64,000 nt of DNA from Escherichia coli. GTDB taxonomy: Bacteria > Pseudomonadota > Gammaproteobacteria > Enterobacterales > Enterobacteriaceae. Position numbers: made by a program. The DNA lies in the NCBI RefSeq assembly GCF_048403405.1, contig NZ_CP183129.1. One strand, 5' to 3'. This document shows, piece after piece, positions 60,401-63,400 of this stretch. The first letter of the stretch is position 1. Every line of letters begins with the position of its first letter.

Positions 60401-63400
60401 GAAAGATAATAAATGGATATACTCTAAATAATTAGAGTTGCAGGAAGGCGACTAGCGAGTGAATCCCCAGGCGCTTACATAAGTAAGTGACTGGGGTGAG
60501 CGAACGCAGACGCAGCACATGCAACTTGAAGTATGACGAGTATATTTACAGCATGTTCCAGCCGATCAGCATATTCCACCACCACACGCCGAGGGTGATA
60601 TGTACCAGGAAGGTTAATATCGTCAGTACCGCACCGACCAACCACCAGGATTTAATATCGTTGTAACCCACGCCAAAGATGACCGGACCTGCCGCGCCGC
60701 CATAGTGAGTAACCATGCCGCCATAGGAGTTGGAGAACAACAGTGCCAGCGCGGTTAACATTAACGGTGCGCCGGAGACGTTCGCCAGCATGGCAAATAC
60801 CGGTAACATAGCAACGATATAGGCACTACCGGAAGCGAAGAAATAACGAACGATGATGCTGAGGAAAATAATAACGAAGAAAGCAACGTTACCGTGACCA
60901 TCAAATGCCAGGTTATTTTTAAAGACTTCAGCTAACCATTCGAAGAATTTAACTTTCGATAATAAGGAGCTTAAGCCGATAATACCGCCGTACCAGATTA
61001 AGGTATTCCAGCCGCCTTTATTTTTAACCACGTCTTCCCAGGTAACGATACCCAGCAGCAGCATGGTCGCCATAACAACGATTGCCACGGTGGATTCATC
61101 AACCCCCAGGGACTTACTGAAAATCCAGCCCAGCAGCGCCAGCACAAAGACACCGAGCAGCATTTTTTCGCGGATTTTCATCGGTCCCAGTTCGGCAAGG
61201 CCCGCTTTGGCGATGGTTTTGTTATCCACCTTCTTAATTTCTGGCGGATACATGGTGTAAATCACCAGCGGGGTGACCAGCAGCATAATGATACCCGGCA
61301 ATCCGGCGGCCAGCGCCCATCCACCCCAGCTAATTTGCAGGTGCAGAATGTCGTTGATCATTTTCAGCGCCAGAATGTTCCCCGCCATTGCGGTAAAGAA
61401 CATATAGCTGGTGGTTTTGGTGACCATGTAAATGGACATCATCAGGTAATGTCCGACACGACGCGGACTTTTTTCCGGTTCGGACCCCAAAGCCACCGCC
61501 ACGCTGTTGATGATCGGTAACACAATGCCGCCCGCACGCGCGGTGTTAGACGGTGTTGCCGGAGCCAGTACCAGATCGAGAAATACCGTAACGTAACCCA
61601 GACCCAGGGTAGTGCTACCAATTTTACCAATCAGCAAATAGGCAATACGTTTACCTAAGCCGGTGGTCACAAATGCGGCGCTTAAGGTAAACGCCGAGAA
61701 CACCAGCCAGGTGGTACCTGAAGAGTAACCGCTTAATACGGCGGTGGTTTTAAACGCACCGTCGGATAAGTTACCGACCACCACCATGGAGGCAGCAACG
61801 GCAATTAACAGTACGACAGGTTCCGGGAAAGGCTTGATAACCAGCCCCACAATGGCCGCCAGGTAAATACCAAAAAGCACCCACGCCAGTTCGCTTAATC
61901 CTGCCGGAGCTGGCATAAAGCCAATAATACATGGGATCGCTAATATCAGAATTAGCTTCCATAACGATTTTTTATTCATTTAAAATCCTGTTCTTTCTGT
62001 ATGACTCATACAGAAGTCCTTTATTGATTGTCCTTATCCTGACAACGAATTTTTTCAGGGAAGAAAAACTTCACCGGAAAATATTTTTCTGGTTGTCCGA
62101 ATAACAGATGCGCGTAACGTCGTGGCATCCTGACCTTCATTACTTAAATGAACGTCGAGCGCACCACTGGGGTGTTCAATATTGATATTGCCGTATCCTA
62201 CAGAAGGGACGATTTGTCGGGTGACGGTGCCTTCCAATGCACAACTACTGGAAATGGCAATAGCACCGGTTATCGCCAGCGCGCGATGGCAAGAATGCGG
62301 CATAAAATAACGCACATTAATTGCTCCGCCTTTCTGCGCTGGAGAAATAAGCACAGGTTTAGGGATAACCATATTACTGACATCGCCTAAGCCCATTGCT
62401 TTACCCGCTTGTAGACGGATAGATTCAATGCGAGCTAATAATGCTTTGTCGGCATCCAGTTCCATCGGTAATTCATAGCCTGTTTTTCCCAGATATTCAG
62501 CAGGAATAATGACAACTGGCATCGCCATATCGATACAGGTCACCGGGACATCGTCAAAATAATCAATCTGATTATCAGTCGGGAAGACTTTTCCGGTTTT
62601 GGTTCCGGCGGCATTCAGGAAAGTGAGCGCAACCGGTGCGGCAGTACCCGGTACGCCGTCAATTCTGGCGCTACCCTCGTACTCGACAACACCATTTGGC
62701 GTTTGCACATCAGCTTCGATGAACGTACCCGTATTGACGTTGCGGATACGTACGCGGGTAACTGGCGAAGTCGCTGCAATCAAACCATTTTCAATAGCGA
62801 ATGCCCCAACGCCAGACAGCATATTGCCGCAGTTAGGCGTGGTATCGACACGTTGCTCATGGACGATAACTTGAGCAAACAGATAATCGACATCAGCACG
62901 CGGATCGCTGGAACGGCTAATAATGGCGACTTTACTGGTCAGCGGATTACCGCCGCCAATACCGTCAATTTCCAGATCGTTACCGGAACCCATAATTGCC
63001 ATCAATATTTTATCGCGCTGCGTTTGATCTTCGGGTAGATGTTCCGCTAACAGGAACGCGCCCCTCGAGGTTCCACCTCGCATCATCACGCAGGGTATTT
63101 TTTTCATAATAATGCCCTCAATTTAAAAACATAACTTATTGCGATATGGTTACATTAAGGGCAAAGCATCTCTAATGACTTTAGCTCAACGATTAATAAC
63201 ATTTTTTCATTAATTTAAGTTAGCTAAATGCAGTTAAAATTTTTAACGGCCAGTCACCCAAAATCGACGCTTCCATTTTCCGGAGTAATAATGAAGCATG
63301 AATTATCAAGTATGAAGGCATTTGTCATACTGGCAGAGTCCAGTTCATTTAACAATGCCGCTAAATTACTCAATATTACGCAACCTGCATTAACGCGAAG

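What the first reader, a model, noticed from the sequence alone, without database searches (positions are those of the whole stretch)
63108..63290. Candidate LysR-type box in the ybhH-ybhD divergent promoter
TTAATAACATTTTTTCATTAA (63192-63212) fits the T-N11-A LysR-binding architecture and lies between the divergently transcribed ybhD (LysR regulator) and ybhH, suggesting autoregulation and control of ybhHI.
Basis: inference. Interest (0 to 1): 0.2.

Follow-up and report, generated by a model that had tools for sequence, protein, structure and literature searches.

The report
Conserved YbhD operator between ybhH and ybhD
The AT-rich palindrome between the E. coli genes ybhH and ybhD is real and evolutionarily conserved, and is most likely the ordinary binding site through which the LysR-type regulator YbhD controls ybhH and itself.

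Summary
The sequence exists, one base off: TTAATAACATTTTTTCATTAA is 63193-63213, extendable to ATTAAT-N11-ATTAAT (63192-63214), in the 183-bp ybhH/ybhD spacer.

In E. coli alone it is not above chance. T-N11-A occurs 26 times in the spacer, and a perfect 5-N11-5 repeat arises in 33% of composition-matched random sequences.

Comparison rescues it. The LysR/PrpF-isomerase divergon is present in 74 of 80 related loci across gamma- and alpha-proteobacteria. It carries an in-register element: (C)TAATG, 13 bp, ATTnnT-N11-AnnAAT. The inner T and A are near-invariant. The 43-bp element (63172-63214) is identical in 5137 of 5426 E. coli genomes; its right neighbour is identical in only 8.

I read 63192-63214 as the recognition site and 63172-~63192 as the weaker activation site of a standard LysR-type operator.

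Published RNA-seq shows ybhH strongly up in a ybhD deletion, so regulation is known. No operator sequence or binding assay was found, and ChIP-exo in glucose medium saw no YbhD there.

The closest characterised analogue is Bacillus TarR/tarAB.

The parts
63108..63290 (.). ybhH/ybhD divergent intergenic region (183 bp, 32% G+C)
   Evidence: ORF list and sequence; RefSeq names ybhH and ybhD; composition.
62055..63107 (-). ybhH, a PrpF-family isomerase (350 aa) and the presumed regulated target
   Evidence: Pfam PrpF, E 4e-167. Solved structure 6OTV; the nearest characterised relative is LigU, (4E)-oxalomesaconate delta-isomerase. Reported up-regulated in a ybhD deletion.
63291..64000 (+). ybhD, a LysR-type regulator (first 236 aa; cut by the window end)
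   Evidence: Pfam HTH_1 plus LysR_substrate; PDB relatives NtcB, CbbR, OxyR, BenM.
63192..63214 (.). Dyad B/C, ATTAAT-N11-ATTAAT, the proposed recognition site (RBS). Centre at 63203.
   Evidence: Perfect inverted repeat (I16). Unique in the window. Consensus ATTnnT-N11-AnnAAT across clades; arms complementary in 126 of 174 cells against 32-81 when slid; T 29/29 and A 28/29. Information content 1.5 bits per column against 0.2-0.6 in the flanks. Pattern found at the same place in about 60 loci.
63172..63179 (+). Site A, CTAATGAC: a third half-site on the ybhH side and the conserved half of the proposed activation site (ABS, about 63172-63192)
   Evidence: Invariant block in Escherichia, Citrobacter and Edwardsiella and in 19 other Enterobacterales spacers. 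AATG is conserved in all clades. It is a direct repeat of the B half-site (TAATAAC, 63194-63200) at a 21-bp offset: 280 of 469 matches against 47-178 at other offsets.
63173..63195 (.). Second, wider dyad A/B': TAAT-N15-ATTA, sharing the B hexamer with the RBS. Centre about 63184, 19 bp from the RBS centre.
   Evidence: Peak of inverted similarity between site A and the heptamer at template positions 25-31. Read directly from the sequence.
63235..63240 (+). Candidate -10 hexamer of the ybhD promoter (TAAAAT). Its -35 position (about 63211-63218) overlaps the right arm of the dyad.
   Evidence: The TA is invariant and a TAnnnT pattern is kept in 8 of 9 Escherichia, Citrobacter and Edwardsiella spacers. 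No transcription-start data; this is inference.
63146..63155 (-). Conserved block ATGGTTACAT (minus strand ATGTAACCAT), the possible -10 region of the ybhH promoter
   Evidence: Conserved. The consensus scan found no minus-strand promoter. Assignment is inferred from geometry only.
63282..63286 (+). ybhD Shine-Dalgarno sequence GGAGT
   Evidence: Invariant; lies 4 nt before the ATG.
63131..63145 (.). Nac-like sequence ATAACTTATTGCGAT (5 of 6 core positions), nearest to the weak published Nac ChIP-seq peak at -27 from ybhH
   Evidence: Not part of the YbhD element, but part of the control region.

Best explanation
**What it is.** The 43-bp segment 63172-63214 is the operator of the LysR-type regulator YbhD.

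**How it is built.**
- A YbhD dimer recognises the symmetric site ATTAAT-N11-ATTAAT (63192-63214, centre 63203). This is the high-affinity recognition site.
- The second dimer of the tetramer contacts the less symmetric region on the ybhH side, about 63172-63192. Only the outer half-site CTAATGAC is conserved there.
- That half-site is a same-orientation copy of the half-site in the left arm, two helical turns (21 bp) away.

**How it works.**
- Without inducer, the bound and bent tetramer covers the region where the ybhH promoter's -35 must lie, and keeps ybhH off. This fits the published derepression of ybhH in a ybhD deletion.
- With an unidentified carboxylate inducer, the complex is expected to shift and activate, as in other LysR-type systems.
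- The right arm sits at the -35 position of the likely ybhD promoter, so YbhD should also repress its own gene.

**Shown versus inferred.**
- Shown here: the existence, extent, symmetry and conservation of the element, and its linkage to YbhD orthologues.
- Shown by others: ybhH is up in a ybhD deletion.
- Inferred: direct binding, the RBS/ABS assignment, promoter positions, activation and autoregulation.
For: - **Divergon conservation.** The LysR/PrpF divergon is conserved in 74 of 80 loci.
- **Operator conservation.** An ungapped, in-register element is found in 72 spacers that are otherwise unalignable between clades. Independent MAFFT alignments give the same invariant blocks.
- **Information content.** Clade-balanced values are 1.2-1.5 bits per column at sites A, B and C, against 0.2-0.6 elsewhere.
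- **Dyad register.** Arms are complementary in 126 of 174 cells, against 32-81 when slid. The T and A of T-N11-A are near-invariant.
- **Site A as a repeat.** It is a direct repeat of the B half-site at 21 bp.
- **Leave-clade-out scan.** A motif from other Enterobacterales (YbhD 55-61% identical) or from Citrobacter/Edwardsiella ranks the E. coli site first of about 128,000 positions.
- **Degenerate pattern.** ATTNNT-N11-ANNAAT hits the same spot in about 60 loci, with only about 13 hits in the remaining roughly 470 kb.
- **E. coli population.** The operator is identical in 5137 of 5426 genomes. The right neighbour is identical in 8 and the left neighbour in 4069.
- **Regulator conservation.** The recognition-helix region is nearly identical across clades.
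- **Geometry.** The RBS centre stays 93-109 bp from the PrpF start codon in nearly all clades, while its distance to the LysR start varies from 88 bp to 0. That is what positioning relative to the target promoter predicts.
- **Published regulation.** ybhH is strongly up in a ybhD deletion (PMC9068703).
- **Family expectation.** The RS/AS1/AS2 architecture and uninduced repression are described in the family review PMC11495319.
Against: - No binding assay exists. YbhD-8myc ChIP-exo in glucose M9 gave a single weak peak (signal/noise 3.6) inside yihP and none at this spacer. That peak has no operator-like motif.
- No transcription start site is known for either gene, and the promoter scan found no minus-strand promoter. 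The -65/-35 geometry is therefore a guess.
- The conserved arm bases (ATT...AAT) lie outside the T-N11-A pair. In the textbook ATAC-N7-GTAT box they lie inside it.
- Covariation at the variable arm positions 4-5 is not significant: 26 of 58 cells against 21.7 expected, with 1709 of 20000 shuffles at least as high.
- The anchoring of distant clades was seeded with the E. coli sequence.
- Motifs built from Pseudomonas or alpha-proteobacteria do not retrieve the E. coli site (ranks 15-214).
- One Klebsiella copy (L015/L016) lacks the element.
- In alpha-proteobacteria and Lysobacteraceae the right arm overlaps the first codons of the regulator, so its conservation there is confounded by coding.
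Confidence: 0.78

Rival explanations
1. The box is a binding site for Nac, another LysR-type protein. Nac is reported to regulate ybhH/ybhI, and it, rather than YbhD, would give the T-N11-A appearance.
For: - The core 63196-63210, ATAACATTTTTTCAT, matches 5 of 6 core positions of the Nac motif ATA-N9-TAT (motif ATAagnaaaanttAT from PMC9853098; scored).
- Nac ChIP-seq lists a peak in this spacer (-27 from ybhH), and expression ratios suggest Nac repression (PMC5217608, supplement 3).
- The E. coli left arm reads TTAATA where many relatives have TTAATG, and this creates the ATA.
Against: - The Nac peak is weak (height 4). Its reported centre maps to about 63134, 69 bp from the box, next to two other 5-of-6 matches (63125-63139 and 63131-63145).
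- The strong Nac peak (height 46) is at ybhI +21, where a perfect ATA-N9-TAT lies (61961-61975).
- ATA-N9-TAT with one mismatch is barely enriched in the window (270 matches against 230 expected).
- The element tracks YbhD orthologues through clades with quite different arm letters, and the conserved bases (outer ATT/AAT and the AATG of site A) are not Nac core positions.
Confidence: 0.1
2. The conserved AT-rich hexamers are core promoter elements (-10-like boxes) of two back-to-back divergent promoters, not a regulator site. Their symmetry would be a by-product.
For: - ATTAAT resembles TATAAT in 4 of 6 positions and is its own reverse complement.
- In some Pseudomonas loci the right arm region reads GATAAT or AATAAT and lies only about 28 bp from the regulator's start codon.
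- In other Enterobacterales a -35-like TTGCAC sits in the spacer, 17 bp upstream of a conserved TAnnnT.
Against: - ATTAAT lacks the A at position 2 of a -10 hexamer.
- The consensus promoter scan reports nothing at these positions on either strand.
- The 11-bp spacing and strict in-register symmetry with a near-invariant inner T/A pair are what a dimeric regulator predicts, not promoter hexamers.
- Site A (AATG) has no promoter-like reading, and the hexamer letters change between clades while the symmetry is kept in many.
- Overlap with promoters is expected under the operator model as well.
Confidence: 0.07
3. It is a chance palindrome in AT-rich DNA with no sequence-specific role.
For: Single-sequence statistics: T-N11-A occurs 26 times in 183 bp, and a perfect 5-N11-5 repeat is expected in 33% of random sequences of this composition.
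Against: Cross-genus and cross-class conservation, the leave-clade-out scan and E. coli population invariance all argue against it.
Confidence: 0.03

Closest known systems
Classical LysR-type operator: recognition site plus activation sites, for example BenM/CatM ATAC-N7-GTAT with sites 1-3 (review PMC11495319)
   Same: - A T-N11-A core with dyad symmetry.
- A location between the regulator gene and a divergently transcribed target.
- A second, less symmetric site about two helical turns toward the target.
- Overlap with the regulator's own promoter region.
- Repression of the target in the uninduced state.
   Different: - The conserved arm bases (ATT...AAT) lie outside the T/A pair, giving a 23-bp dyad rather than the 15-bp ATAC-N7-GTAT type.
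- The second site shares a hexamer with the first and has only one conserved half-site.
- Promoter positions, the inducer and binding itself are untested.
TarR/Ptar of Bacillus velezensis FZB42, the trans-aconitate assimilation system tarR-tarAB (PMC11495376)
   Same: - A LysR-type regulator transcribed divergently from a PrpF-superfamily isomerase followed by a carboxylate transporter, across a spacer of similar size (173 bp against 183 bp).
- TarR protects two regions containing three short AT-only hexamers, all required for binding. Here there are likewise three hexamer-scale sites in two adjacent dyads.
- That paper's genome survey counts Escherichia fergusonii and Citrobacter freundii as tarRAB-type, with TarA homologues about 39% identical.
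   Different: - The hexamer is TTATAA there and ATTAAT/TAATG here.
- TarR is described as an activator induced by trans-aconitate, whereas YbhD is so far seen only as a repressor.
- The transporter is MFS there and DASS here.
- I could not obtain the Ptar sequence, so the hexamer spacing could not be compared.
- YbhH's nearest characterised structural relative is LigU rather than an aconitate isomerase.
- Orthology of YbhD with TarR was not tested.
Nac site ATA-N9-TAT
   Same: It is also a T-N11-A box of a LysR-type protein. The core of the box matches 5 of 6 positions. Nac is reported to act on ybhH and ybhI.
   Different: The conserved positions of the element are not the Nac core. The reported Nac peak in this spacer is weak and centred about 69 bp away. 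The perfect Nac site is at the start of ybhI (61961-61975).

Membership tests
LysR-type regulator recognition site (LTTR box, RBS/RS) | T-N11-A core | tested here: met
   T63197 and A63209. In 29 distinct orthologous dyads the T is kept 29/29 and the A 28/29.
LysR-type regulator recognition site (LTTR box, RBS/RS) | Dyad symmetry around the T and A | tested here: met
   Perfect 6-bp arms in E. coli (I16). Across clades, 126 of 174 arm cells are complementary in register, against 32-81 when the partner arm is slid by 1-3 bp. The arms lie outside the T/A pair, unlike ATAC-N7-GTAT.
LysR-type regulator recognition site (LTTR box, RBS/RS) | Lies between the regulator gene and a divergently transcribed target gene | tested here: met
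   ybhH (minus) and ybhD (plus) flank it. The same arrangement is found in 74 of 80 related loci.
LysR-type regulator recognition site (LTTR box, RBS/RS) | Accompanied by a lower-symmetry activation site toward the target promoter, with the RBS near -65 and the ABS near -35 | tested here: inconclusive
   A conserved half-site, CTAATGAC, lies 21 bp toward ybhH, and the RBS centre is a constant 93-109 bp from the target start codon. No transcription start is known and no minus-strand promoter was found by consensus scan.
LysR-type regulator recognition site (LTTR box, RBS/RS) | Overlaps the regulator's own promoter (negative autoregulation) | tested here: inconclusive
   The best conserved -10 candidate, TAAAAT at 63235-63240, puts the -35 on the right arm. 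In other Enterobacterales a -35-like TTGCAC lies in the spacer, 17 bp from a conserved TAnnnT. There are no start-site or expression data for ybhD autoregulation.
LysR-type regulator recognition site (LTTR box, RBS/RS) | Bound by the cognate regulator | not testable with these tools
   Published ChIP-exo (glucose M9) shows no YbhD peak here. RNA-seq shows ybhH derepressed in a ybhD deletion, which fits binding but is indirect.
Nac-binding site | ATA-N9-TAT core | tested here: not met
   63196-63210 reads ATA-N9-CAT, 5 of 6. One-mismatch matches are near chance level in the window.
Nac-binding site | Coincides with an in vivo Nac peak | tested here: inconclusive
   The ChIP-seq peak at -27 from ybhH (height 4) maps to about 63134, 69 bp from the box centre. 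ChIP-seq resolution does not exclude the box.
tarRAB-type trans-aconitate assimilation locus and its TarR operator | LysR-type regulator divergent from a PrpF-superfamily isomerase plus a carboxylate transporter | tested here: met
   Pfam gives HTH_1/LysR_substrate, PrpF and Na_sulph_symp. The gene order is shown.
tarRAB-type trans-aconitate assimilation locus and its TarR operator | Three essential 6-bp palindromes (TTATAA) in two protected regions | tested here: inconclusive
   Here there are two palindromic ATTAAT hexamers plus one non-palindromic CTAATG. The sequence differs from TTATAA. The spacing in Ptar could not be retrieved.
tarRAB-type trans-aconitate assimilation locus and its TarR operator | Isomerase acts on trans-aconitate, and trans-aconitate is the inducer | not testable with these tools
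   YbhH's closest characterised solved relative is LigU. The published ybhD-deletion phenotype concerns L-malate.

The most novel reading that the evidence does not exclude
ybhD-ybhHI(J) would be the proteobacterial counterpart of the Bacillus tarR-tarAB system. Under this reading:
- YbhD senses an unsaturated tricarboxylate, such as trans-aconitate or an oxalomesaconate-like compound.
- It switches from repressor to activator on a three-half-site operator that predates the split of alpha- and gamma-proteobacteria.
- In some lineages that operator encloses the regulator's own start codon.

This would assign an inducer and a pathway to three or four E. coli genes of unknown function.
Probability: 0.25. 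Interest if true: 0.45.

Novelty: new member of a known kind. Interest (0 to 1): 0.25.

Why it matters
YbhD is one of the remaining uncharacterised LysR-type regulators of E. coli. Its effect on ybhH is published, but I found no operator sequence or inducer in the literature I could search.

A defined 43-bp operator with a cross-clade consensus gives three things:
- A concrete fragment and concrete mutations for binding assays.
- A motif for regulon searches.
- A ready promoter/operator pair for testing candidate inducers or building a biosensor.

The link to the TarR system also suggests which ligands to try first. The mechanism itself is textbook, so a specialist would not be surprised.

Tried and rejected
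- **yihP ChIP-exo peak.** I looked for the motif under the only published YbhD ChIP-exo peak (MG1655 4066599-4066632, inside yihP). All motif scores were negative, so that peak says nothing about the motif.
- **Compensatory changes in the arms.** I tested for them at the variable arm positions. Perfect variants exist (ATTAAT/ATTAAT, ATTATT/AATAAT, ATTGAT/ATCAAT), but the excess is not significant, so I do not claim covariation.
- **Distant-clade motifs.** Motifs from Pseudomonas or from alpha-proteobacteria plus Lysobacteraceae do not retrieve the E. coli site. Only the outer ATT/AAT, the inner T/A and AATG are shared.
- **Promoter and terminator scan.** It gave no minus-strand promoter and only an implausible plus-strand hit ending on the ybhD start codon. 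Promoter positions remain inferred.
- **Rfam.** Nothing was found in 62950-63450.
- **Nac consensus scan.** Across the window it is uninformative. A local scoring was used instead.
- **TarR promoter sequence.** I tried to obtain the B. velezensis sequence by scanning metagenome contigs with the published EMSA primer. This gave 15 chance hits, none with the reverse primer. The supplement holds no Ptar sequence.
- **Existing operator predictions.** PMC9068703 and its supplement give none for YbhD.
- **Exception.** The Klebsiella grimontii/michiganensis copy (L015/L016) has no recognisable element.
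Full report
**1. What is in the sequence**

The window ends in the E. coli ybhJ-ybhI-ybhH / ybhD region.
- ybhH (350 aa, PrpF family) runs 63107 to 62055 on the minus strand.
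- ybhD (HTH_1 plus LysR_substrate domains) starts at 63291 on the plus strand and is cut by the window end.
- The spacer between them is exactly 63108-63290.

It extends to a perfect inverted repeat, ATTAAT-N11-ATTAAT, at 63192-63214. The T-N11-A pair is T63197 and A63209.

**2. Is it more than chance?**

From this sequence alone, no.
- The spacer is 32% G+C.
- T-N11-A occurs at 26 of 171 positions.
- A perfect 5-N11-5 inverted repeat appears in 33% of composition-matched random sequences, and a 6-N11-6 repeat in 11.5%.
- The exact pattern is unique in the 64-kb window (expected 0.09), but that pattern was chosen after seeing it.

**3. Comparative evidence**

A scan of one genome per species with YbhH returned 80 loci. 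In 74 of them a YbhD-like LysR gene (45-99% identical over 236 aa) lies divergently upstream. They cover:
- Escherichia, Citrobacter, Edwardsiella and Klebsiella;
- many other Enterobacterales;
- Pseudomonas and Lysobacteraceae;
- alpha-proteobacteria such as Paracoccus and Bosea.

Alignments of the spacers:
- MAFFT on nine Escherichia, Citrobacter and Edwardsiella spacers leaves few invariant blocks: CTAATGAC.TT (63172-63182), ATT..T (63192-63194 and 63197), ATTAAT (63209-63214), the TA of TAAAAT (63235-63236) and the ybhD Shine-Dalgarno GGAGT.
- An independent MAFFT alignment of 19 spacers from other Enterobacterales genera, made without E. coli, shows the same three blocks: CTCTAATG, ATTAAT and CATTAAT.
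- An ungapped anchored alignment of 72 spacers puts all clades in one register.

The clade-balanced consensus is c.AATGc - 13 bp - gATTaaT - N11 - ATnAAT. Information content is 1.2-1.5 bits per column at the three sites, against 0.2-0.6 in spacers and flanks.

Further support:
- The two arms of the dyad are complementary in 126 of 174 cells in register, against 32-81 when one arm is slid. The inner T and A are kept in 29/29 and 28/29 distinct sites.
- Motifs built only from other genera rank the E. coli site first among about 128,000 window positions.
- The degenerate pattern ATTNNT-N11-ANNAAT hits the same spot in about 60 loci. It hits only about 13 times in the remaining roughly 470 kb.
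- Within E. coli, the 43-bp element is identical in 5137 of 5426 complete genomes. The adjacent 43 bp toward ybhD is identical in 8, and the 43 bp toward ybhH in 4069.
- The helix-turn-helix segment of the regulators, (S/T)QPAL(S/T)RR, barely changes across these clades.

**4. Limits of that evidence**

- The anchoring of distant clades was seeded from E. coli.
- Pseudomonas and alpha-proteobacterial motifs do not retrieve the E. coli site.
- Perfect palindromes with different inner letters exist (ATTAAT/ATTAAT, ATTATT/AATAAT, ATTGAT/ATCAAT), but covariation at those positions is not significant.
- One Klebsiella copy lacks the element.
- In alpha-proteobacteria and Lysobacteraceae the right arm overlaps the regulator's first codons, so coding constraint contributes to its conservation there.

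**5. Anatomy**

The half-site is roughly TAATGnC. Copies occur at four places:
- Site A, 63173-63179, pointing right.
- Site B, 63194-63200, pointing right, 21 bp from A. The match at this offset is 280 of 469, against 47-178 at other offsets.
- Site C, about 63206-63212, pointing left.
- A leftward reading of B.

This gives two overlapping dyads:
Its centre is 63203.
- A/B', TAAT-N15-ATTA, with its centre at about 63184.

**6. How it most likely works**

I read B/C as the high-affinity recognition site and the A side as the lower-symmetry activation site of a standard LysR-type operator, as summarised in PMC11495319.

The geometry supports this. The dyad centre stays 93-109 bp from the PrpF start codon in nearly all clades. 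Its distance to the regulator's start codon falls from 88 bp in E. coli to zero in alpha-proteobacteria. That suggests the element is positioned relative to the target promoter.

Only 64 bp separate site A from the ybhH start codon, so a ybhH promoter in that interval would have its -35 at site A.

The best ybhD -10 candidate, TAAAAT at 63235-63240, is conserved as TAnnnT in 8 of 9 close relatives. It places the -35 on the right arm, which would give autorepression.

These promoter assignments are inferences. No start-site data were found, and the consensus scan found no minus-strand promoter.

**7. What is already published**

- Rodionova et al. 2022 (PMC9068703) report ybhH strongly up-regulated in a ybhD deletion, a growth phenotype with L-malate, and Nac regulation of ybhHI. 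They give no YbhD operator sequence.
- Gao et al. 2021 (PMC8464067) list a single YbhD ChIP-exo site in glucose M9, inside yihP, and none at the ybhD promoter. That site has no operator-like motif.
- ybhD is expressed at very low level in that data set, so the negative result is weak.

**8. Rival explanations**

*Nac.* The box core is a 5-of-6 match to ATA-N9-TAT, and a Nac ChIP-seq peak lies in this spacer. But that peak is weak (height 4) and maps to about 63134. The strong peak (height 46) is at ybhI +21, where a perfect ATAACGATTTTTTAT lies (61961-61975). The conserved bases of the element are also not the Nac core.

*Promoter hexamers.* ATTAAT lacks the A at position 2 of a -10 hexamer. 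The 11-bp spacing and the symmetry fit a dimeric regulator better.

*Pure chance.* This is excluded by the comparative data.

**9. Comparison with known systems**

The element meets the sequence-level criteria of a LysR-type box: a T-N11-A core, dyad symmetry and a divergent position. It differs in that its conserved arm bases lie outside the T/A pair.

The closest characterised system by gene content is tarR-tarAB of Bacillus velezensis:
- It has a LysR-type regulator divergent from a PrpF-family aconitate isomerase and a transporter.
- TarR protects two regions holding three essential TTATAA hexamers.
- Trans-aconitate is the inducer (PMC11495376).
- That paper's survey counts Escherichia fergusonii and Citrobacter freundii as tarRAB-type.

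I could not retrieve the Ptar sequence to compare hexamer spacing. YbhH's nearest characterised solved relative is LigU, not an aconitate isomerase. The transporter next to the conserved LysR-PrpF pair changes family between clades: DASS, SDF and MFS. That fits uptake of some di- or tricarboxylate but does not identify it.

**10. Verdict**

This is a routine LysR-type operator for a poorly characterised regulator. I class it as a new member of a known kind, with interest about 0.25.

Noticed in passing
window 61961-61975: A perfect Nac core, ATA-N9-TAT (ATAACGATTTTTTAT), overlaps codons 2-6 of ybhI. It coincides with the strongest published Nac ChIP-seq peak of the locus (ybhI +21, height 46). 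This suggests ybhI is controlled separately from ybhH.
   Followed up: partly
window 63113-63126 and 63150-63163: An inverted repeat, TGCCCTCAATTTAA / TTACATTAAGGGCA. As minus-strand RNA it forms a hairpin (-16.4 kcal/mol, z = -2.8) that pairs the ybhH Shine-Dalgarno GAGGG (63119-63115). It matters only if the ybhH transcript starts upstream of 63163, and it is poorly conserved in Citrobacter.
   Followed up: partly
L057 2370-2392 and 2455-2477 (also L056, L059, L061, L064, L071, L072): Lysobacteraceae spacers carry a second perfect ATTGAT-N11-ATCAAT dyad 86 bp from the first, about 24 bp upstream of the PrpF gene. This may be a second operator; E. coli has none.
   Followed up: partly
L055-L078 (alpha-proteobacteria and Lysobacteraceae), about 2365-2400: The regulator's start codon lies inside the operator. 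ATG AAT forms the right arm in Paracoccus-type loci, and the ATG sits in the 11-bp spacer in Lysobacteraceae. No Shine-Dalgarno sequence is visible, which suggests leaderless or very short-leader transcripts.
   Followed up: no
Pseudomonas loci, e.g. L018-L020, about 2440-2495: Nested inverted repeats (ACTCTTGT ... TTGATCAAT ... ATTGATG ... ACAAGAGT) lie between the operator and the PrpF start codon. They could be a 5' leader structure or a further protein site.
   Followed up: no
L005 (E. coli strain E69), 1540-2500: About 780 bp is inserted in ybhH near codon 41. I recognise its ends from memory as IS1-like. The operator itself is intact in this strain.
   Followed up: no
L020 3590-4945; L021 3665-5843; window 60546-61979: The gene after the PrpF isomerase is always a carboxylate transporter, but of a different family in each clade: DASS in E. 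coli, SDF in Pseudomonas, and MFS followed by an FAA-hydrolase-family gene in Lelliottia.
   Followed up: partly
L015 and L016 (Klebsiella grimontii and K. michiganensis), 2222-2500: This copy of the divergon (about 68% identical proteins) has a 280-bp spacer with no recognisable operator. It does have a perfect palindrome, ATGACTAGTCAT, built on the TAATGAC half-site. K. michiganensis also has a second, operator-bearing copy (L031).
   Followed up: partly
L081 (MG1655 4066300-4066950): The only published YbhD ChIP-exo peak lies inside the yihP coding sequence and contains nothing resembling the operator. It is probably non-specific.
   Followed up: yes
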